Source: Polyangiales bacterium (GTDB taxonomy: Bacteria; Myxococcota_A; Polyangia; Polyangiales; Ga0077539). Taken from it: a DNA stretch of 64,000 bases. The stretch covers positions 157,525 through 221,524 of the forward strand of contig JBGARZ010000015.1 in the NCBI GenBank assembly GCA_044229975.1, read 5' to 3'. The position numbers and the translations under genes were made by a program. The stretch's first letter is position 1, and each line of letters starts with the position of its first letter. This document shows positions 45,959 to 53,450 of this stretch, one piece after another. Below the pieces are notes generated by a model, which did no database searches, had not been told where the DNA came from, and saw only the letters and a list, made by a program, of their open reading frames with translations.

Positions 45959-46116
45959 GCTGTTGCGCCCGGCCGCCGCGGGTTGGAAACCCACGGCAGC
46001 CAAGGTGAAGTCCGCCAGGCGGACTGCCCAATGTCCACGCACAGTGCCCAGCCCGCGACGCGGGCTTTCCCTTGGCTGCCGTGGGTTTCCAACCCGCGGC
46101 GGCCGGGCGCAGCGGC
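45959..46116. repeat. REP/REPIN-like inverted-repeat doublet, family A copy 2
   Basis: Arms GCGCCCGGCCGCCGCGGGTTGGAAACCCACGGCAGCCAAGG and its reverse complement; homologous to 13566-13718. Confidence 0.85.
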
Positions 46117-46134
46117 GCTGTGAGAACGGTGTCG

Positions 46135-47145
46135 ATGAAGCACACGCTCTCGTGGGCGCTGGCGGGGCTGCTGCTCGCGTCGTCGGTGAGCGCGCAGACG
46201 CGCAACGACCGCGCGCTCATCGAGCAGGGCCGAACGCTCCGCCGGGCAGGTCGCAACGCCGCCGCGCTGGAGGTGTTTCGCGAGGCGTACGCGATGAACC
46301 CGACGCCCGAGGCCGCGGGGCAGATTGGCTTCGCGGAGCACGCGCTGGAGCACTGGGGACCGGCGTCGAGGTTTCTGCGCGCGGCGCTCGGGACGCCGGC
46401 TGATCCGTGGGTGGTGGCGCAGCGGCGGGCGTTGGAGTTCTCGTTGTCGGAGGTCGACCATCACCTGGGCTCGCTGCGCGTGGAGAGCGGGACACCGGGC
46501 GCGACGATCACGCTCGACGGCGAGCCCGCGGGCGCGCTGCCGATGGCGGCGGCGATGCGCGTGGCAGCGGGTCCGGTGGTGCTGGAGACGCGCGCGGCGG
46601 GCTACGTGACCGATCGCCGCGAGGTGACCATCGCCGCGGGGGAGACGGTGCGCGTGGTGGTGCAGCTCGCGCCCGCGACGACGGCGCCGACCGTGACGCC
46701 GACCGTGACGCCGACCGTGACGCCGACCGTGACGCCGACGGTGGTCGAGCCGCGGGTGGTGGTGGTGCCCGTAGCGACGCCCGCACCAGTGGCCGCCGCG
46801 GGGACCAACGTGACGCGGGTGCTGGGCTGGGTGTCGCTGGGCTTCGCGGTGGCGGCGGCGGGCGGTGGCGTGGCGGCGATGGTGGTGCGCGACGGCGCAG
46901 GCGAGCGATGGAACGACGACGCGCGCTGCCTCACGGGTGGCCGCACGCGCGAGCAGAACTGCGGCGACGACCGGGCGCTGGTGTCGACGGCGCACGACCT
47001 GATGGTGGGGGCCTACGTGGCGGGCGGAGTGCTCGCGGTGGGGGCGGCGGTGTTGTTCATCGCGGCGCCGTCGTCGCGTGAGAGCGCGCCGCGGGTGAGC
47101 GTCGGCATCGGGCCGGGCGGCGTGTCGGTGAGCGGTCGGTTCTGA
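46135..47145 (+). CDS. TPR + PEGA domain protein with C-terminal TM hairpin
   Basis: Signal peptide, TPR-like helices, PGATITLDG PEGA motif, (PTVT)n linker, C-terminal SVSGRF. Confidence 0.85.
   Translation: MKHTLSWALAGLLLASSVSAQTRNDRALIEQGRTLRRAGRNAAALEVFREAYAMNPTPEAAGQIGFAEHALEHWGPASRFLRAALGTPADPWVVAQRRALEFSLSEVDHHLGSLRVESGTPGATITLDGEPAGALPMAAAMRVAAGPVVLETRAAGYVTDRREVTIAAGETVRVVVQLAPATTAPTVTPTVTPTVTPTVTPTVVEPRVVVVPVATPAPVAAAGTNVTRVLGWVSLGFAVAAAGGGVAAMVVRDGAGERWNDDARCLTGGRTREQNCGDDRALVSTAHDLMVGAYVAGGVLAVGAAVLFIAAPSSRESAPRVSVGIGPGGVSVSGRF
46687..46743 (+). repeat. 12-bp tandem repeat CCGACCGTGACG (x4 plus partial) encoding PTVT
   Basis: Directly visible in the sequence. Confidence 0.9.
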
Positions 47146-49105
47146 TCGGGTTGCGGGCGCCCGCTCGGGTCGCCCAACGCGCCTCACCGTGGCGCAGCGA
47201 CGGGGCGATGGTGACGTCCGCGGTCGTCGACCGCCACCGTCTGGCCCGCCGCCATGGCGGCCGCCACCCGCCGCCACCCTGCGAGGGATGGGAATGCCTG
47301 TAGCGATAGCGGATTCGCGACGGCACGGACGTCGCTCATGCGGTCGGCCTTCGGATGGCCGATGGCGGTGGACATGCTCACGTCGGCTCGCGCGACCCCG
47401 TTCGCGATGGGGTGGTCTACGGGCTCGCGCGTGATCACTTCGCTGTCTTCGCCGAGCGGATGTCAGAGGGCGGTCGCCCGCTGCCGCGGTATGTGACGGA
47501 GGAGTTCGAGGCGCTGCTGCGCTGCGGTGTGCTGGCGTGCGGGTTCATGCGGGCGCGCTGCGCGGGTTGCGGCCACGACCGGCTGGTGGCGTTTTCGTGC
47601 AAGCGCCGCGGGGTGTGTTCGAGCTGCGGGGGGCGACGGATGAGCGAGACAGCGGCGACGCAGTGCGACCGGGTGCTGCCTGCCGTGCCGTGGCGACAGT
47701 GGGTGCTCTCGTTGCCGTGGGCGCTGCGGTTGCCGGTGGCGCGCGACCCGTCGCTGCTCAACGCCGTGTCGCGGGTGTTCTTCGAGGAGGTGCGGGCGTG
47801 GCTGCGAGCGACGGTGGGGCCGGTGCCGGGCGCGCGGGTCGAGGTGGCCGCCGTGACGTACGTGCAGAGATTCGGTGGGAGTCTCAACCTCAACCCGCAC
47901 CTGCACATGCTGGTGGCCGACGGGGTGTTCGCGTGCCGGGAGGATGGGAGCTCGCCGGATTTCATGGCGGTACTCGCGCCGACGCGGGATGACCTACGCA
48001 GGGTCATCGCGCGGGTGATCGAGCGGCTCGAAACGATCGCGCTGCGGCGGGAGCGTCGCGCGGGTGACGGGAGCGGCACTGCAGACGAGGGCATGGAGGG
48101 GCTGCGGCAGGCAGCGGGCGGCCGCGGGACCTTCGCGCGCGTCGACGAGCGGGGGCGACGCGGGGGCGACGACGACGAGGAAGCAAGCGCACCCTCGCGG
48201 CAGGCGTCGAGTGGGCTGGTGGCGGAGGTCGACGGGTTCAACCTGCACGCGGGGGTGCGCGTGGTGGCGGACGATCGCGATGCGCTGGAGCGGCTGTGCC
48301 GGTACATGGCGCGCCCAGCGGTGGCGAGCGGCCGGGTGAGCGTGCTGCCCGATGGCAACGTGGCCTACCGGGTGAAGTCGCCGCGGAGCGCCAGGGCGAC
48401 GCACCGGGTGATGACGCCGATGGAGTTCATGGCGCGGCTGAGCGCGCTGGTGCCGCCGCCGCGGACGCCGTTGGTGCGCTACCACGGTGTGCTGGCGCCG
48501 AACTCTCCCTGGCGCGTCGCGGTGGTGCCGTTGCCGCCCCTGGTGCAGGGGTGCCCTCGTGTAGTGGCAGCGGCGCCGCCGCCGGGGCCGGTGCTAGGAG
48601 AAGCGAAGGCCGGGACGCCCGGGGGAGAGCTGCCGAACGACCGCGTCGGGGGACGAGATGGCGAGAGCCTGCGGAGCGCGCGCATCGAGTGGGCGCGGCT
48701 GCTGTGGCGCGTGTGGGGCGTCGACGCGCTGGCGTGCCCTGGGTGCGGCGGGCGGATGAAGATGATCGCCGCGCTCACCGAGCGGGCGGGGATCGTACGC
48801 GTGCTGGAGCACCTCGGCGTCTCCACCGAAGTGCCGAGGATGAGACGCTCGCGCGACGGGCCGTAGGCGGGCGCGGCGAGGAGGGGGAGCCGTTGACCGC
48901 CACGGGCGGGACGAGGAAGGCCGCGGTGCGCCCCGGTGACGGGCGGTGGTGGCGGTGGGATGTTGGATTCGCTCAGCGAGCTCTCCAACGAGCGCGCGTA
49001 GAGCTCCCGCTGCACGTCACGGAGAGGGGTACTTCGCGGTCTGGGCATTCGGTCAACCCGAGCGAATCCGTGCCGATGATGGTGCCCCGTTGGTTCGCCT
49101 ATCGG
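47146..49105 (+). mobile_element. IS91/ISCR-like rolling-circle element (boundaries approximate)
   Basis: Contains the HUH transposase; downstream end CCCGTTGGTTCGCCTATC resembles ISCR oriIS ends; no terminal IRs or target-site duplication seen. Confidence 0.65.
47355..48866 (+). CDS. IS91-family transposase
   Basis: Zn-binding CAGC...SCKRRGVCSSC, RQWVLSLP, QRFGGSLNLNPHLH (HUH), GFNLHA, RLCRYMARP, RYHGVLAP, CPGCGGRM; start uncertain. Confidence 0.92.
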   Translation: MADGGGHAHVGSRDPVRDGVVYGLARDHFAVFAERMSEGGRPLPRYVTEEFEALLRCGVLACGFMRARCAGCGHDRLVAFSCKRRGVCSSCGGRRMSETAATQCDRVLPAVPWRQWVLSLPWALRLPVARDPSLLNAVSRVFFEEVRAWLRATVGPVPGARVEVAAVTYVQRFGGSLNLNPHLHMLVADGVFACREDGSSPDFMAVLAPTRDDLRRVIARVIERLETIALRRERRAGDGSGTADEGMEGLRQAAGGRGTFARVDERGRRGGDDDEEASAPSRQASSGLVAEVDGFNLHAGVRVVADDRDALERLCRYMARPAVASGRVSVLPDGNVAYRVKSPRSARATHRVMTPMEFMARLSALVPPPRTPLVRYHGVLAPNSPWRVAVVPLPPLVQGCPRVVAAAPPPGPVLGEAKAGTPGGELPNDRVGGRDGESLRSARIEWARLLWRVWGVDALACPGCGGRMKMIAALTERAGIVRVLEHLGVSTEVPRMRRSRDGP

Positions 49106-49137: not shown

Positions 49138-49562
49138 CGACGCCGACGGTTGTGCCGACCGCGATCGAGCCGCGGGTGGTCGTGGTGCCGCCGGTGGTGG
49201 CGCCAACGCCGGCAGCGGGGACCAACGTGACGCGTGTGCTGGGCTGGGTGTCGCTGGGCTTCGCGGTGGCCGCAGCGGGTGGTGGCGTGGCGGCGATGGT
49301 GGTGCGCGACGGCGCGGGCGAGCGGTGAAACGACGACGCGCGCAGCCTCACGGGCGGACGAACGCGCGAGCAGAACTGCGGCGACGACCGGGCGCTGGTG
49401 TCGACGGCGCACGACCTGATGGTGGGAGCCTACGTGGCGGGCGGGGTGCTCGCGGTGGGGGCGGCGGTGTTGTTCATCGCGGCGCCGTCGTCGCGTGAGA
49501 GCGCGCAGCGGGTGAGCGTCGGCATCGGGCCGGGCGGCGTGTCGGTGAGCGGTCGGTTCTGA
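49138..49562 (+). pseudogene. Degenerate duplicate of the 3' part of the PEGA gene (about 46730-47145)
   Basis: Near-identical sequence (GTNVTRVLGWVSLG...SVSGRF) with TGG>TGA nonsense at 49326-49328. Confidence 0.85.
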
Positions 49563-49597
49563 TCGGGTTGCGGGTGCCCGCTCGGGTCGCCCAACGC

Positions 49598-49714
49598 GCT
49601 CACGTCGGCTCGCGCGACCCCGTTCGCGATGAGGTGCTCAACGCACTCGTATGCGATCACGTTGCGGCCTTCGCCGAGCGCATGTCGGAGGGTGGTCGGT
49701 CGCTGCCGCGGTAG
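49598..49714 (+). pseudogene. Diverged remnant of the IS91 transposase 5' end
   Basis: Colinear with 47376-47492 (GCTCACGTCGGCTCGCGCGACCCCGTTCGCGATG...), ending in TAT>TAG. Confidence 0.75.
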
Positions 49715-49852
49715 GTAAGGACGCTGATGGCGTTGATGGCGCGGCTCTCCGGGGGGGGCTGAGCTTGTTCTTGTCGGAGCCGGGGTGAGGGTCACCGGCG
49801 TCGGGCCCAGTGCAGTGACCCGGTCACGCCGTGTGATAGGTTCCCCAGGCTC

Positions 49853-50656
49853 ATGGCCCTCCCGTTGACCAAAGCCCAGCAGATCTGGAACGAGGCCGCG
49901 TCCCGTTTGACCGACGACGGGGAGGCCATCGACCCGTTCACGCTCCGTCGGTGGTTGAGGGACGCCAACCTCGCGCTCCCGAATGCTCCGAACGATGCGG
50001 AGCAGGGTGTCCTGTGGTGGATCATCGGGCAGACGCATCAACGGTTCGCATTTGCGCTGCGCGACCCCTCTCATCTTGTTCTGGCCCGCGACGCGCTGCT
50101 TCGTACCGTCGCCCTCCGGCCCGACGATGCAGACGCGCTCGTGACCCTCGGCTCAGTCCTCGGGTTCTTGAAAGACCTGCCGAACGCGCTCGCTTGCTTC
50201 AGGAAGGCAGAGATCCAGTTCCCGGAGGGGTCAACGGGACGCGCGATCGCCGTACTCAACCAGGCGGCCGCACATTGGGAGCTCGGGGAGCCCGGCCCTG
50301 CCAACGCCCTCCTGCGTCGCGCGGCGGGCTTCGTTCGCAGCGATGATGCGCACGCGCTTCTTCGTTTGGCGCACGTCACCGCGCTCGTGGGGCACGAAGA
50401 CGATGCGGTGGAGGTGTTGGCGCAATACGTGGCCGCGCGGCTCGGGTTTGATCGCGGTGATGACGAGGCGTTGGAAGTGATCGCCCGTGCACCGGAAGCC
50501 GTCGAGCACCCGCTCCGTAGCGAGTCCCTCAGTCGCGCGCTGCACAACGTGATCAAGCGCTACGAGGAGCCCGTCCCGGACGACATGGCGACCCCGGCCC
50601 TGCGAACGCTTTCTTCGCAGGGCTGGGAGGCGTTCATGAAGTTGGTGGAGGCGTAG
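49853..50656 (+). CDS. TPR-repeat protein with DUF1778/TacA-like C-terminal peptide
   Basis: TPR motifs (ALRPDDADALVTLGSVL, NALACFRKA); ends LRTLSSQGWEAFMKLVEA. Confidence 0.7.
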   Translation: MALPLTKAQQIWNEAASRLTDDGEAIDPFTLRRWLRDANLALPNAPNDAEQGVLWWIIGQTHQRFAFALRDPSHLVLARDALLRTVALRPDDADALVTLGSVLGFLKDLPNALACFRKAEIQFPEGSTGRAIAVLNQAAAHWELGEPGPANALLRRAAGFVRSDDAHALLRLAHVTALVGHEDDAVEVLAQYVAARLGFDRGDDEALEVIARAPEAVEHPLRSESLSRALHNVIKRYEEPVPDDMATPALRTLSSQGWEAFMKLVEA

Positions 50657-50657
50657 G

Positions 50658-51188
50658 GTGGCCATCGAGGTTCGTCGGCTGACTCATCGTGACTCCATCG
50701 GCGACTTCGGCTGCGGGACACCGAAGCTCGACGCTTTTCTCAAGCAGGTCGCACGCACCAATGTGAAGCGCGAGTGGAGCGTCACCTGGTTGGCAGTGGA
50801 CGAGGGGCGGGTCGCGGGCTTCGTCACCATCGTTCCTGGTGGCCTCCAGGTGGCAGACCCCAAGGTCTTCGACCCGCGTCTCCCGGACCACTACCCGGTC
50901 CCCGTGCTCGTCCTTGCGCGGCTGGGCACCGACGAGAGGTTCAAGCTCCAGGGGGTGGGGGCGCGCCTGATGCTGCAGGTTTTCCGTGCGGCCGATACCC
51001 TGGCGGGGCTGGCCGGCTGCGTGGGTGTGTTCACTGACGCGAAGCCCGGCTCGGTAGTCTTCTACGAGAAGTTCAAGTTCAAGACCGTGGACGCGCCGAA
51101 GAGTGAGGGCGATACCGCCGCGATGTTCCTGCCGTTGGCGGAGGTGCGGAAGCAGCTCGCAGTCCTCGACGCGAAGTCATGGGCGTAG
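50658..51188 (+). CDS. GNAT N-acetyltransferase, TacT/AtaT-like toxin
   Basis: DFGCGTPKLDAFLK, YPVPVLVLARLGTD, QGVGARL, DAK...FYEKFKF; starts 1 nt after the upstream stop. Confidence 0.82.
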   Translation: MAIEVRRLTHRDSIGDFGCGTPKLDAFLKQVARTNVKREWSVTWLAVDEGRVAGFVTIVPGGLQVADPKVFDPRLPDHYPVPVLVLARLGTDERFKLQGVGARLMLQVFRAADTLAGLAGCVGVFTDAKPGSVVFYEKFKFKTVDAPKSEGDTAAMFLPLAEVRKQLAVLDAKSWA

Positions 51189-51410: not shown

Positions 51411-53201
51411 TCAGGTCTGGATGACGAAGTAGAAGCCGGCGTCGAGGTCGCTGCGGCCGTTGCCGGTGTGCGTGAAGATCTGCGTCGAGCCGGTCTCCGG
51501 GTCGAAGTCGTTGTCGGTCGCGTCGTTGCCACCCGCGTCGGGCGACGAGAGGATGTAGCTGAACGGCGGGATCACCTCGATGTAGTAGTCGCCCGCCGGG
51601 ACGTTGCTGAACCAGTACTGCCCCGAGCTGGCGCTGACGGCCACGCTGACGAGGGCGCCGCTCGACGTGCGGAGGATGAACGTGGCGCCGCCCAGGCCGG
51701 CCTCGCCCGGGTCCTGGATGCCGTCGCGGTCACGGTCGTTCCAGGCGCGGTCGCCGATGCAGCCCTCGTCGACGAGCCCGTCGCAGTCGTTGTCGAGGCC
51801 GTCGCCACATGCCTCGGCGCTCGGCACCACCGAGCCCACGCACGCGCCGTAGCCCGTCCCGCTGGCGTTGCACGTCTGGGAGCCCGCCCGGCAGACGCCC
51901 ACGCCCGCGGTGCCGGGCGCCCCGGTGTAGCAGGAGGAGGTCGCCGCAGGCGCGCACACGCAGCCCTCGTCGGCGACCGCGTCGCAGTCGTTGTCGAGCC
52001 CGTCGCCGCAGACCTCCACCCCGGGCAGCACCTCGCCCGCGCACTGGCCGTAGCCCGAGCCGTCGGCGAGGCACACGCGCGAGCCCGAGCGGCACGTGCC
52101 GATGTCCTCCGTGCTCGGCGGTCCCGAGTAGCACCCCGAGGTCGAGCCCGGCAGGCAGACGCAGTTCTCGTCGGCCGCGCCGTCGCAGTCGTTGTCGAGC
52201 GTGTCGCCGCAGACCTCCGCCGACGGGGTCACCGCGCCCACGCACGCGCCGTACGCGGTGCCGGTCGCGTTGCAGAGCCGGGTGCCCGCCGCGCAGACGC
52301 CCACGCCGTCGGTCCCGGCGGGGCCCTCGTAGCAGGACGCCGCAGCGTCGGGCGCGCACACGCAGCCGTCGTCGACGACGCCGTCGCAGTCGTCGTCGAC
52401 CGCGTTGCCGCACACCTCCGCGGTCGGCGTCACCGCCCCCGCGCACGCGCCGTAGCCCCTGCCGTCGGCGTCGCACGTCTGGATCCCGGCGCGGCACGCC
52501 CCGACCCCTCCGGTGCCGCTCGGCCCGTCGTAGCAGGACGTCGTCGAGCCGCCGACGCACACGCAGCCCTCGTCGACCTGGCCGTCGCAGTCGGTGTCGA
52601 GCCCGTCGCCGCAGACCTCCGCCGCCGGGGTGACCGCGCCCGCGCAGGCGCCGTACGAGGTGCCGTCGGCCGCGCAGGTCCTCGTGCCGGCGACGCAGGT
52701 GCCGACGCCGTCGGTGCCCGTGGGGCCGTCGTAGCAGGACGCCGTCGAGCCGCCGACGCACACGCAACCCTCGTCGACCGCGCCGTCACAGTCGTCGTCG
52801 ACCGCGTTGCCGCAGACCTCGGCCGACGGCGCCACGGCGCCAGAGCACGCGCCGTAGCCCGTGCCCCAGGCGTTGCACGTCTGGCTCCCGGCCCGGCACG
52901 CGCCGACCCCTTGCGTACCCGCGGGCCCGGCGTAGCACGGCACCACGGCGCTCGGCGCGCACACCACCGGGGCGCACTCCCCGCGGTAGTCGCCGTGCCC
53001 GAGGTGCGCGCTCTCGGCCGACGCGTTCACCTCGATGGTGTGCGCGTTGGACGGGTTGCCCGGCGGCACGTGACAGATCCGGACCTTGGCCCCGGACGCG
53101 GCCTGCACGGCGGTGAGCACCGCCTCTTCGGGGCCATCTCCCCCACAGCCCGAGCACGCGACGAGCGCGGACCAACCCACGACGAGAATCGACTTGCGCA
53201 T
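51411..53201 (-). CDS. Secreted Cys-rich repeat protein with C-terminal SdrD B-like domain
   Basis: Signal/lipobox; KVRICHVPPGNPSN..HLGHGD..G.C module; six ~67-aa repeats CYxGPxGT.GVG.C..G...C...YG.C.G...EVCG...D.DCDG..DE.C; IGDRAWNDRDRDGIQDPGE...DLDAGF. Confidence 0.88.
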   Translation of the reverse strand: MRKSILVVGWSALVACSGCGGDGPEEAVLTAVQAASGAKVRICHVPPGNPSNAHTIEVNASAESAHLGHGDYRGECAPVVCAPSAVVPCYAGPAGTQGVGACRAGSQTCNAWGTGYGACSGAVAPSAEVCGNAVDDDCDGAVDEGCVCVGGSTASCYDGPTGTDGVGTCVAGTRTCAADGTSYGACAGAVTPAAEVCGDGLDTDCDGQVDEGCVCVGGSTTSCYDGPSGTGGVGACRAGIQTCDADGRGYGACAGAVTPTAEVCGNAVDDDCDGVVDDGCVCAPDAAASCYEGPAGTDGVGVCAAGTRLCNATGTAYGACVGAVTPSAEVCGDTLDNDCDGAADENCVCLPGSTSGCYSGPPSTEDIGTCRSGSRVCLADGSGYGQCAGEVLPGVEVCGDGLDNDCDAVADEGCVCAPAATSSCYTGAPGTAGVGVCRAGSQTCNASGTGYGACVGSVVPSAEACGDGLDNDCDGLVDEGCIGDRAWNDRDRDGIQDPGEAGLGGATFILRTSSGALVSVAVSASSGQYWFSNVPAGDYYIEVIPPFSYILSSPDAGGNDATDNDFDPETGSTQIFTHTGNGRSDLDAGFYFVIQT

Positions 53202-53450
53202 CGAGACACCACCCTCTCCGACGGCCGCATGACGCGACCGCACTCGACGATCCAGTGCGCCGTGTACGACGGCCTTCCGCGGCGTGTCGAGGGCGCACGA
53301 GCGCTTCTCCGCAGCGTCGTCGGTGTCACTGCTCGGGCATGGAAATACGTCCAACAACGGCGGTCACACGTCGCGGGAATGAGTCGTCGTCGGGGCGCGG
53401 CGGCGCGAGCTCACGGTGGCTCGCGTGACCCCGCGGGCGGCCTGCGGCCA

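What the first reader, a model, noticed from the sequence alone, without database searches (positions are those of the whole stretch)
49853..51188. GNAT toxin paired with a TPR protein ending in a TacA/DUF1778-like helix: non-canonical toxin-antitoxin or sensor-gated defence module
Seen: a two-gene unit (1-nt gap) in a visibly less GC-rich patch next to the IS91 element. The GNAT has the F-x-C-G...L-D-x-F-L-K, P-V-P...L-A-R-L and D-A-K...F-Y features of tRNA-acetylating TacT/AtaT-type toxins. Established: their antitoxins are normally ~90-aa RHH proteins (DUF1778) with a C-terminal toxin-binding segment of the L-S-x-x-x-W/F-x-x-F type. Here the upstream gene is a 267-aa TPR protein ending RTLSSQGWEAFMKLVEA. 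Inference: the DNA-binding RHH is replaced by a TPR domain that could sense a phage or stress protein and release the toxin.
Basis: partly seen in the sequence, partly recalled or inferred. Interest (0 to 1): 0.72.

Follow-up and report, generated by a model that had tools for sequence, protein, structure and literature searches.

The report
TPR antitoxins with swappable neutralising tails
A helical-repeat (TPR) protein ending in an antitoxin-derived tail sits directly before an acetyltransferase of the tRNA-poisoning toxin family and is predicted to bind and block it; relatives of the same TPR protein carry different tails and precede three other toxin families, so this is likely an undescribed plug-in antitoxin platform that possibly releases its toxin on sensing a phage.

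Summary
The GNAT's solved relatives are TacT/AtaT/KacT toxins.

The pairing is conserved. Of 21 other loci of this TPR protein, 11 have the GNAT directly downstream, 6 a MazF-like gene (4 firm, 2 tentative), 1 a PIN gene, 1 a RelE/ParE gene and 2 nothing. The tail changes with the toxin.

The window's tail alone misses Pfam TacA1. Longer-tailed relatives hit it (8 of 51 at E≤0.05, one above the cut-off). The window keeps the TacA strand and helix but lacks the last helix.

A complex model supports binding (0.68, best control 0.00). The tail docks as in KacA, and the TPR scaffold covers the toxin's likely tRNA/dimer face.

Of 13 extended contexts, 3 are phage tail regions and 2 are defence islands; the window is neither. 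Toxicity, rescue, sensing and defence are untested. The closest concept is the multidomain PanA antitoxins. Nine literature searches and four look-ups in this scan's notes found no TPR version.

Verdict: new variant of a known kind.

The parts
49853..50656 (+). TPR-scaffold antitoxin candidate, 267 aa (P0001)
   Evidence: ORF; weak Pfam TPR hits; AF2 helical solenoid, pLDDT 95.9; family of full-length homologues
49853..50302 (+). N-terminal TPR part (residues 1-150); none of its residues is listed in the predicted toxin interface; candidate sensor surface (inferred)
   Evidence: interface list starts at residue 151 (an unlisted residue is uncertain, not excluded); family-specific N-terminal segment
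50303..50566 (+). C-terminal scaffold helices (residues 151-238) with the family motif D-A-V-E-x-x-A-R and R-G-D; predicted to contact the GNAT
   Evidence: residues 151-190, 203-206 and 236-237 listed in the interface; E187 and R191 kept in 24 of 26 rows across toxin types
50567..50653 (+). TacA-derived tail (residues 239-267): linker, strand L250-L253, helix with W258/F261/L264/V265; lacks the PPxP-alphaD end
   Evidence: in-register alignment to canonical TacA; long-tailed relatives hit PF08681; closest predicted contacts
50647..50651 (+). GGAGG ribosome-binding-site-like sequence, 6 nt before the GNAT start, inside the end of the TPR gene
   Evidence: sequence; function inferred
50658..51188 (+). 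TacT/AtaT/KacT-like GNAT acetyltransferase, 176 aa; toxin candidate
   Evidence: Pfam GNAT above cut-off; PDB matches; G101 and Y136 invariant in 25 of 25 aligned relatives
49834..49842 (+). TG-A-TAGGTT, extended -10-like sequence 10 nt before the ATG (weak, inferred)
   Evidence: TANNNT at -30..-6 in 9 of 20 family loci against 8 of 43 other window genes; the consensus scan found no promoter

Best explanation
The two genes likely form a type II toxin-antitoxin pair in which the TPR protein is predicted to bind and silence a likely tRNA-acetylating GNAT toxin, and the TPR scaffold, which recurs with other tails before three other toxin families, likely serves as a trigger-sensing platform that would free the toxin, possibly during phage infection.

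Steps:
(1) Shown: the genes are coupled, the pairing is conserved, the tail is TacA-derived, and tail type follows toxin type.
(2) Predicted: tail strand 250-253 pairs with GNAT 61-64. W258/F261/L264/V265 pack on GNAT 63, 65, 122, 142, 157 and 159, as KacA betaB-alphaC does on KacT. Scaffold helices 151-206 add contacts, and GNAT helix alpha1 (23-41) and residues 80-88 are buried.
(3) Inferred: this keeps the GNAT monomeric and off tRNA. The scaffold would do the job of the extra RHH protomers and make up for the lost alphaD helix.
(4) Inferred, untested: a ligand binding the free N-terminal TPR groove releases the GNAT, which dimerises, acetylates aminoacyl-tRNA and halts translation.

My odds: working TA pair 0.85; trigger-gated through the TPR 0.5-0.55; phage as the trigger 0.4.
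For: Pairing: 19 of 21 other family loci have a toxin-family ORF directly downstream (GNAT 11; MazF-like 6; PIN 1; RelE/ParE 1). 0 of 39 generic-TPR loci carried a GNAT or MazF-like hit (best 3.2 and 4.3 bits).

Reverse check: of 11 TacT-like GNATs in 31 genomes of this family, 7 follow the TPR gene and 4 follow a small RHH-type, TacA-like gene; none is an orphan.

Tail: L007 scores 22.6 bits on PF08681 (cut-off 21; model positions 34-77), and 8 of 51 members match at E<=0.05. The short-tail profile (30 rows) aligns in register with 22 canonical TacA proteins: hhalign score 19.1, reached by 0 of 200 column shuffles, best of 46 scaffold windows 12.2. W258/F261/L264/V265 have the spacing of KacA W61/V64/A67/I68 (PMC6698736).

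Complex: score 0.68, best of 3 controls 0.00. The mark was reached by 116 of 157 solved and 2 of 215 mismatched pairs; the runs agree in at least 89% of contacts; partner pLDDT at least 88.

One scaffold: a profile of residues 164-236 built from GNAT-type rows only scores L004 (PIN) 51, L032/L033/L099/L100 (MazF-like) 38-54 and L034 (RelE) 27 bits, against at most 17.3 for generic TPRs. On a scaffold-only tree, one clade of GNAT-type rows is rejected (p-AU 0.00025), which implies tail/toxin exchange.

Context: 3 of 13 extended loci lie in phage tail regions and 2 of 13 among defence genes.

Precedent: multidomain PanA, where an add-on domain neutralises and Panacea is proposed as sensor (PMC10440598); CapRel's antitoxin domain senses capsid protein (PMC9712102 abstract).
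Against: No experiment shows toxicity, rescue, sensing or defence.

The window's tail alone gives no Pfam hit and only 4.1 bits on a local TacA profile. The hhalign probability is only 36%. Tail-profile scores on canonical TacA (at most 15.4 bits) do not exceed the best unrelated ORF end in this genome (16.6 bits among 66,190).

The tail lacks alphaD, whose R77 KacA needs for neutralisation. The complex pass may reflect likeness to solved TacA-TacT complexes, and my own alignments were used.

The window's neighbours give only generic kinase and protease hits in PADLOC, and 7 of 13 extended contexts are unremarkable; no background rate was computed. The conserved scaffold residues are mostly small structural ones, so no ligand site is identified.

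Two MazF-type loci (L035, L072) fail the family-specific test (6.5 and 8.8 bits). The only PIN and RelE loci are broken: an in-frame stop in the L004 TPR gene, frameshifts in both L034 genes. L008's GNAT and L100's TPR gene are also frameshifted. Two loci (L012, L059) have no toxin. L010/L011/L013 come from one genus, at least two of them beside the same ccmF-sized gene, and are not independent.
Confidence: 0.52

Rival explanations
1. It is a plain addiction or maintenance TA module. The TPR only stabilises the short tail and sterically replaces the RHH tetramer; it senses nothing, and the toxin is released only when the antitoxin decays.
For: The scaffold itself is in the predicted interface. 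Conserved positions are structural. The family is patchy and sits in mobile settings: prophages, beside IS elements. The window has no defence neighbours. In one PanA, the isolated neutralising element worked only once a stabilising tag was fused to it (PMC10440598).
Against: About 150 N-terminal residues are kept at constant length with a family-specific motif yet are not listed in the interface. A purely steric role tuned to GNAT does not explain reuse with MazF, PIN and RelE folds. A 270-residue stabiliser is costly beside the roughly 90-residue RHH antitoxins used by other GNATs in the same family.
Confidence: 0.3
2. The pair is a tamed derivative: the GNAT is no longer toxic or acetylates another substrate, the truncated tail is vestigial, and the TPR is a substrate adaptor.
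For: alphaD is missing. TPR-paired GNATs group apart from the 18 canonical TacA-paired GNATs sampled (100/98). Bikmetov et al. note GNATs outside the 'true TA clade' that may have other functions (PMC9177977). Orphan TPR genes exist (L012, L059).
Against: The acetyl-CoA loop glycine G101 and the predicted catalytic Y136 are invariant in 25 rows. No TPR-clade GNAT was found without a partner gene. Short tails are the majority (30 of 40 rows) and L253 is kept in at least 90%. The alternative partners are all toxin families.
Confidence: 0.09
3. The TPR is a protease or chaperone adaptor: it neutralises by delivering the bound toxin for degradation (type VI, SocA-like), or holds the tail through a host chaperone (TAC-like).
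For: TPR solenoids that bind chaperone peptides are among the structural matches (HOP, Sti1, CHIP; Z about 13.6-14). SocA works as a ClpX adaptor (PMC9177977 passage).
Against: These matches are generic and rank no higher than many other TPRs. The predicted interface is large and of the sequestering KacA type.
Confidence: 0.07
4. Chance adjacency of a generic TPR gene and a GNAT next to an IS element.
For: TPR and GNAT genes are common in such genomes (over 400 first-look TPR candidates in this genome).
Against: 11 other loci share the pair; 0 of 39 generic TPR loci do; TacA homology in relatives.
Confidence: 0.01

Closest known systems
TacAT / AtaRT / KacAT (DUF1778-RHH antitoxin + GNAT toxin)
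   Same: Same toxin family, same gene order, homologous C-terminal strand and helix predicted to dock at the KacA betaB-alphaC site.
   Different: No RHH DNA-binding domain, so no conditional cooperativity is expected (inferred). A 238-residue TPR solenoid replaces it. The window's tail stops before PPxP-alphaD. The model is a 1:1 pair, not the 4:2 heterohexamer; other stoichiometries were not tested.
Multidomain PanA antitoxins (Panacea/DUF4065 + Phd-C, PAD1 or ZBD; NetFlax, PMC10440598)
   Same: One shared domain is combined with toxin-specific neutralising elements borrowed from classical antitoxins, and is proposed to be a sensor.
   Different: The shared domain here is a TPR solenoid; PF13274/DUF4065 (accession recalled) did not appear among the window protein's Pfam hits at E<=10. 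The PanA systems were tested in the laboratory; these were not. Seen only in a narrow clade of bacteria and their phages.
VcaAT (DUF4065-GNAT, PMC9177977)
   Same: A GNAT toxin whose DUF1778 antitoxin has been replaced.
   Different: There the whole antitoxin gene is substituted; here the DUF1778 tail is retained and grafted onto a TPR.
CapRel SJ46 (PMC9712102)
   Same: An antitoxin domain that doubles as a phage sensor and gates a tRNA-modifying toxin (abstract); the template for the proposed trigger.
   Different: CapRel is a fused toxSAS with an unrelated fold and a proven trigger; here there are two genes and no trigger is known.
RRNPP peptide receptors (Rap, PlcR, NprR)
   Same: TPR solenoids gated by a bound peptide; among the structural matches (Rap 8rte Z 15.9, rmsd 8.9, 216 aligned; PlcR 2qfc Z 14.7, rmsd 3.5, 200 aligned).
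   Different: The matches are no better than to other TPRs. No conserved peptide gene was looked for systematically, and none was noticed.

Membership tests
TacT/AtaT/KacT GNAT toxin family | GNAT domain whose closest solved relatives are aminoacyl-tRNA-acetylating toxins | tested here: met
   Pfam above cut-off; the 25-row profile's 16 best PDB sequences include KacT 5zgn (E 1.7e-20) at E<=8e-18, against 1e-8 for the next GNAT. That the other entries are TacT/AtaT/ItaT is recalled from their codes.
TacT/AtaT/KacT GNAT toxin family | Acetyl-CoA loop (R/Q-x-x-G-x-G) and catalytic Tyr of the F-Y motif | tested here: met
   K96-L-Q-G99-V-G101 and F135-Y136; G101 and Y136 invariant in 25 rows. Equivalence to AtaT Y144 is inferred from the motif; K at the R/Q position is a deviation.
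TacT/AtaT/KacT GNAT toxin family | Toxic; acetylates aminoacyl-tRNA; active as a dimer | not testable with these tools
   Needs expression and LC/MS.
DUF1778/TacA antitoxin (PF08681) | N-terminal ribbon-helix-helix DNA-binding domain, about 90 aa protein | tested here: not met
   267 aa; no strand anywhere in the model; no RHH or PF08681 hit.
DUF1778/TacA antitoxin (PF08681) | C-terminal betaB-alphaC toxin-binding segment | tested here: met
   Met at family level and by predicted docking; the window's own tail is below any cut-off.
DUF1778/TacA antitoxin (PF08681) | PPxP linker and alphaD helix (KacA 71-86, with R77) | tested here: not met
   The window protein ends at the end of alphaC. 10 of 40 GNAT-type rows keep the extension, 30 do not.
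Type II toxin-antitoxin system | Two adjacent coupled genes, antitoxin first, conserved as a pair | tested here: met
   1-nt gap; 11 further GNAT loci.
Type II toxin-antitoxin system | Direct binding of antitoxin to toxin | tested here: inconclusive
   The model supports it: 0.68, best control 0.00; mark reached by 116 of 157 solved and 2 of 215 mismatched pairs. Not a measurement, and like complexes are solved.
Type II toxin-antitoxin system | Neutralisation of toxicity in cells | not testable with these tools
   Needs a rescue assay.
PanAT (Panacea/DUF4065) | Panacea domain in the antitoxin | tested here: not met
   Only TPR families among the 9 Pfam hits at E<=10; the fold is a TPR solenoid.
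Described anti-phage system (PADLOC-DB 2.0.0) | Components match a curated defence model | tested here: not met
   Only a generic TPR model at E 0.005 for the TPR protein, none for the GNAT; the library dates from 2023.
Sensor-gated anti-phage TA (CapRel-like) | The antitoxin binds a phage product and releases the toxin; protects against phage | not testable with these tools
   Only indirect context.

The most novel reading that the evidence does not exclude
This TPR family is a new hyperpromiscuous sensor-antitoxin platform. Its N-terminal groove recognises a phage protein or peptide, and tails captured from classical antitoxins let the same receptor fire a GNAT, MazF, PIN or RelE toxin: an innate-immune receptor built from exchangeable TA parts and carried by prophages and defence islands.
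Probability: 0.35. Interest if true: 0.86.

Novelty: new variant of a known kind. Interest (0 to 1): 0.72.

Why it matters
How type II TA systems are switched on is largely open. Here the DNA-binding domain is gone and a classic ligand-binding fold holds its place, in front of four unrelated toxin folds.

That gives a small two-gene test case. The sensor candidate (residues 1-150), the scaffold and the neutralising tail can be deleted or swapped separately, and natural long-tail and short-tail forms exist for comparison.

It would be a second case, after Panacea, of one domain recruiting toxin-specific tails. It also shows that DUF1778-based searches miss a clade of GNAT pairs: this genome has no PF08681 match.

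Tried and rejected
Searches that found nothing or failed:
- PF08681 on the window's last 38 aa and on the whole genome: no hit.
- A weak tblastn match of the tail on contig C20 was a histidine kinase; rejected.
- Genome-contig scan with the single protein: one partial match in a 650-aa unrelated TPR protein (L001). L021 was also spurious. Both dropped.
- tblastn of long-tailed P0100 against 72,556 plasmid and 50,697 phage records: no match.
- Long proteins (397-2000 aa) holding this GNAT, i.e. a TPR-GNAT fusion: none among 7,996 candidates; weak evidence.
- MazF-like profile: 0 of 201 class-level genomes (no positive control); 2 of 31 in the family, one at a contig edge with no upstream DNA; none in viral contigs.
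- ESM Atlas gave no answer. Two viral scans with broad alignments could not run.
- Fold searches returned only generic TPRs and no ligand clue.
- No sigma-70 consensus promoter; one terminator-like site, as in shuffles.

Readings considered and dropped:
- Hits that covered only about profile positions 35-230 with the central TPR repeats were treated as generic TPRs and not counted. 39 of their loci served as the negative control (some overlap).
- The PADLOC 'DrmD' hit in L060 is a DnaC-like gene beside a transposase, read as an IS21 pair (label recalled); not counted as defence.
- The pair as IS91 cargo: not supported, since it lies outside the flanking repeats.
- A special origin of the tail from the divergent RHH antitoxin of L137: similar by eye but only 3.0 bits; left open.
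- One clade for the 11 TPR-paired GNATs alone is rejected (p-AU 0.0005) because 3 GNATs of unknown context lie inside; the 14 together have 98/94 support.

Literature: nine searches showed no TPR-fused antitoxin. The library lacks most subscription papers, and no supplements were read; those of PMC9177977 and PMC10440598 could list such pairs. Four answered look-ups in this scan's notes found nothing on this module.
Full report
1. The observation. The window holds a 267-aa ORF (49853-50656) and a 176-aa ORF (50658-51188) on the + strand, one base apart, with GGAGG 6 nt before the second start. The pair is the lowest-GC 1336-bp stretch of 627 in the window (66.2% against 72.1%), and the first gene has the lowest GC3 of 46 genes called. 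The IS91-type transposase (47355-48866) lies between two 469-bp repeats, 91.7% alike, at 46719-47187 and 49139-49603; the pair starts 250 bp beyond the second. The genome has 10.0 Mb in 39 contigs of 66-73% GC. PEGA, Ser/Thr kinase and MopE-repeat genes suggest a myxobacterium; that is inference from recall and no call names the taxon.

2. The GNAT. It passes two Pfam GNAT cut-offs. Its 8 PDB matches are acetyltransferases led by 6g96. A 25-row profile ranks 16 sequences, KacT among them, at E<=8e-18, with the next GNAT at 1e-8. G101 of the acetyl-CoA loop and Y136 are invariant in the 25 rows; AtaT's catalytic residue is Y144 (PMC7595197, passages), and the equivalence is inferred. On a 43-row tree the 11 TPR-paired GNATs group with 3 of unknown context (98/94), beside 11 others of unknown context and apart from 18 GNATs that follow canonical TacA genes (100/98). 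One of the 3 (P0007) has the same longest-contig length, 9064, as the TPR homologue P0004, which hints at the same contig but was not checked.

3. The TPR protein. Pfam TPR hits are all below cut-off. AlphaFold2 with 48 rows gives a helical solenoid over 7-238, a linker, and a last helix at 255-264 (pLDDT 95.9). Structure searches give only generic TPRs. It is single-copy in its genome. A profile search of 1.84 billion representatives listed about 40 single-stretch family members among the best 150. Full-length members occur in 9 of 30 other genomes of the same family (a tenth hit was a generic TPR), 3 of 32 of a second family, 2 of 201 of a third, two more genomes from the order sample, and tentatively 1 further genome of 400 sampled across the phylum. 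The family is patchy and narrow in the genomes searched.

4. Besides the window I hold DNA for 21 distinct loci (L018 and L019 are identical over 10,804 bp and count once). Directly downstream, on the same strand: a TacT-like GNAT in 11 (L003, L005-L011, L013, L018, L020; frameshifted in L008); a MazF/PemK-like gene in 6 (L032, L033, L035, L072, L099, L100; PemK above cut-off in L099 only, below it in four, no hit in L100; the 6-row profile finds MazF7 at E 1.2e-4); a PIN gene in L004 (32.4 bits, cut-off 23.6); a RelE/ParE gene in L034 (second piece 23.3 bits, cut-off 23); nothing in L012 and L059. The tail after the scaffold differs by toxin class. A profile of residues 164-236 from GNAT-type rows only scores L004 51, L032 54, L033 43, L099 46, L100 38, L034 27, L012 53 and L059 25 bits. 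The best of 39 generic TPR loci scores 17.3, and L035 (6.5) and L072 (8.8) fail, so they are tentative. None of those 39 loci holds a GNAT or MazF-like hit; PIN and RelE were not tested in that control. On a tree of the scaffold alone (23 rows; L072, L012 and L059 left out as long branches) one clade of the 14 GNAT-type rows is rejected (p-AU 0.00025), and 3 of 4 PIN-tail rows sit beside the window's branch (91/84, not starred). Three of those 4 rows, and 3 of the 14 GNAT-type rows, are labelled by tail likeness only, with no DNA context. In reverse, 7 of 11 TacT-like GNATs in the family follow this TPR gene and 4 follow a small RHH-type gene with a TacA-like end.

5. The tail. Ten of 40 GNAT-type rows end in the full TacA pattern with PPxP and a last helix; 30, the window among them, stop after the first helix. 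L007 passes the PF08681 cut-off (22.6 against 21) over model positions 34-77; 8 of 51 rows match at E<=0.05. P0047 and P0100 carry the window's P-x-P-D-D-M linker and the full TacA end together, and so bridge the two forms. The short-tail profile aligns in register with 22 canonical TacA proteins (score 19.1, probability 36%; 0 of 200 shuffles reach it). Singly the signal is weak: 4.1 bits for the window, and tail-profile scores on canonical TacA do not beat the best unrelated ORF end in the genome. In KacA the C-terminal region is betaB (52-56), alphaC (57-70), PPAP and alphaD (75-86). betaB pairs with KacT beta3; W61, V64, A67 and I68 pack on the toxin; R77A in alphaD abolishes neutralisation; two further KacA chains cover the dimer face around helix alpha1 (PMC6698736, passages and section 16). 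The window has the first two elements, with W258/F261/L264/V265 in the same spacing, and lacks the rest.

6. Complex model. GNAT plus full-length TPR scored 0.68 (runs 0.70, 0.68, 0.63), best of 3 controls 0.00. The mark was reached by 116 of 157 solved complexes and 2 of 215 mismatched pairs; the runs agree in at least 89% of contacts; partner pLDDT is at least 88. The counts hold only roughly, since my alignments were used, and the tail part may pass by likeness to solved complexes. The tightest contacts are 250-253 with GNAT 61-64, and 258-265 with 63, 65, 122, 142, 157 and 159. The interface list also holds scaffold residues 151-190 and 203-206 and GNAT residues 10-41 and 80-88; that these two sets face each other is my reading, as only the top 25 pairs are printed. 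In AtaT, helix alpha1 and the loop before beta4 bind tRNA. No residue before 151 is listed.

7. Context. For 13 extended loci (L060-L071, L018): three lie in phage tail regions. L018 sits between two baseplate genes on IMG/VR contigs; L061 lies after terminase, portal, head, sheath and baseplate genes; L069, of MazF type, lies after portal, head protease, sheath, tape-measure and baseplate genes. Two lie among defence genes: L071 directly after ZacA-ZacB-ZacC ('Azaca' is recalled), and L067 near REase-like, PDC-S05, HNH and TIR genes. One is beside an IS pair (L060). Seven show nothing telling. The scans used 145 (PADLOC) and 97 plus 20 (PHROGs) proteins picked from rough gene calls, not every gene, and no background rate was computed. 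The window is neither a prophage nor a defence island in the genes scanned (13 neighbours, PADLOC only).

8. Mechanism. Shown: a conserved, coupled pair; a TacA-derived tail; no RHH; one scaffold with four toxin classes. Predicted: 1:1 binding through tail and scaffold. Inferred: the GNAT is held as a monomer away from tRNA, with the scaffold standing in for alphaD and the extra RHH chains; without a DNA-binding domain, control must act after transcription. Most likely, a ligand in the free N-terminal TPR groove releases the toxin, which acetylates aminoacyl-tRNA and stops translation; phage infection is the leading but unproven trigger. The main rival is a plain addiction module with an inert scaffold (0.3).

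9. Comparison and novelty. It works like TacAT but fails two defining features of DUF1778 antitoxins (RHH, alphaD), so it is not filed as a member. Its logic matches multidomain PanA (PMC10440598, passages and section 10; zero occurrences of 'TPR' in the main text), with a different shared domain. The GNAT-toxin survey PMC9177977 (passages) names DUF1778 and DUF4065 partners and has no 'TPR' in its main text. PMC9712102 was seen as abstract and outline. PMC10584680 and PMC7159879 (passages) were not relevant. Nine searches showed no TPR antitoxin of this kind; supplements were not read and subscription papers are mostly absent. This scan's notes hold no earlier report of it.

10. Verdict. A real, conserved module; a new variant of a known kind; interest 0.72. 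The boldest open reading, a TPR immune receptor with exchangeable toxin outputs, has probability 0.35 and interest 0.86.

Noticed in passing
window 46719-47187 and 49139-49603: The IS91/ISCR-like transposase (47355-48866) is flanked by 469-bp direct repeats, 91.7% identical, that duplicate the 3' end of the PEGA/TPR gene 46072-47145. A 116-bp stretch (47376-47491, 49598-49713, 84%) is repeated too. Unusual for a target-site duplication; possibly a trace of rolling-circle mis-termination or recombination.
   Followed up: partly
L138 1127-1468, L139, L141 (same family): TacT-like GNATs preceded by an antitoxin of about 114 aa: RHH (weak PF01402), an inserted segment, then a TacA-like end. It is missed by PF08681. 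L141 lies just after tRNA-like genes.
   Followed up: partly
L137 2018-2299 (-): A 94-aa RHH-type gene with a TacA-like tail and no Pfam hit, upstream of a GNAT resembling the P0009 clade; a candidate for the kind of donor that supplied the TPR tail.
   Followed up: partly
L020 72-1043; proteins P0040, P0069: Members with the C-terminal scaffold region duplicated (371-398 aa); L020 still ends in the short TacA tail before a GNAT.
   Followed up: no
L032, L033, L035, L072, L099, L100: The MazF-like proteins share an N-terminal extension before a P-G-A-V motif and form a divergent subfamily, mostly below the Pfam cut-off. Their cognate tails match no Pfam family (3 tested).
   Followed up: partly
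L004 1351-1530 (-); proteins P0039, P0062, P0094: PIN-type tail of about 60 aa with no Pfam match; a candidate new VapC-neutralising element.
   Followed up: partly
L012 1471-2262 (+), L059 982-1779 (-): Orphan TPR members with degenerate tails and no downstream toxin; L012 lies in a poorly coding stretch.
   Followed up: no
window 49834-49842 and upstream of family genes: TANNNT, often TG-n-TA, 6-30 nt before the start in 9 of 20 family loci against 8 of 43 other window genes; hints at an own promoter with a short leader.
   Followed up: partly
L063-L065 (G081, G074, G053): In this genus the pair follows a gene of about 920 aa (a ccmF-ccmH fusion in L063, the one scanned) and precedes a 114-aa gene (DUF6665 in L063); a fixed chromosomal site rather than a mobile one.
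   Followed up: no
window 51411-53357 (-): Convergent gene for a Cys-rich MopE-repeat protein with an SdrD_B domain; no link to the pair seen.
   Followed up: no
window ~45965-46110: A roughly 150-bp element with inverted ends recurs on many contigs of this genome, REP- or MITE-like.
   Followed up: no
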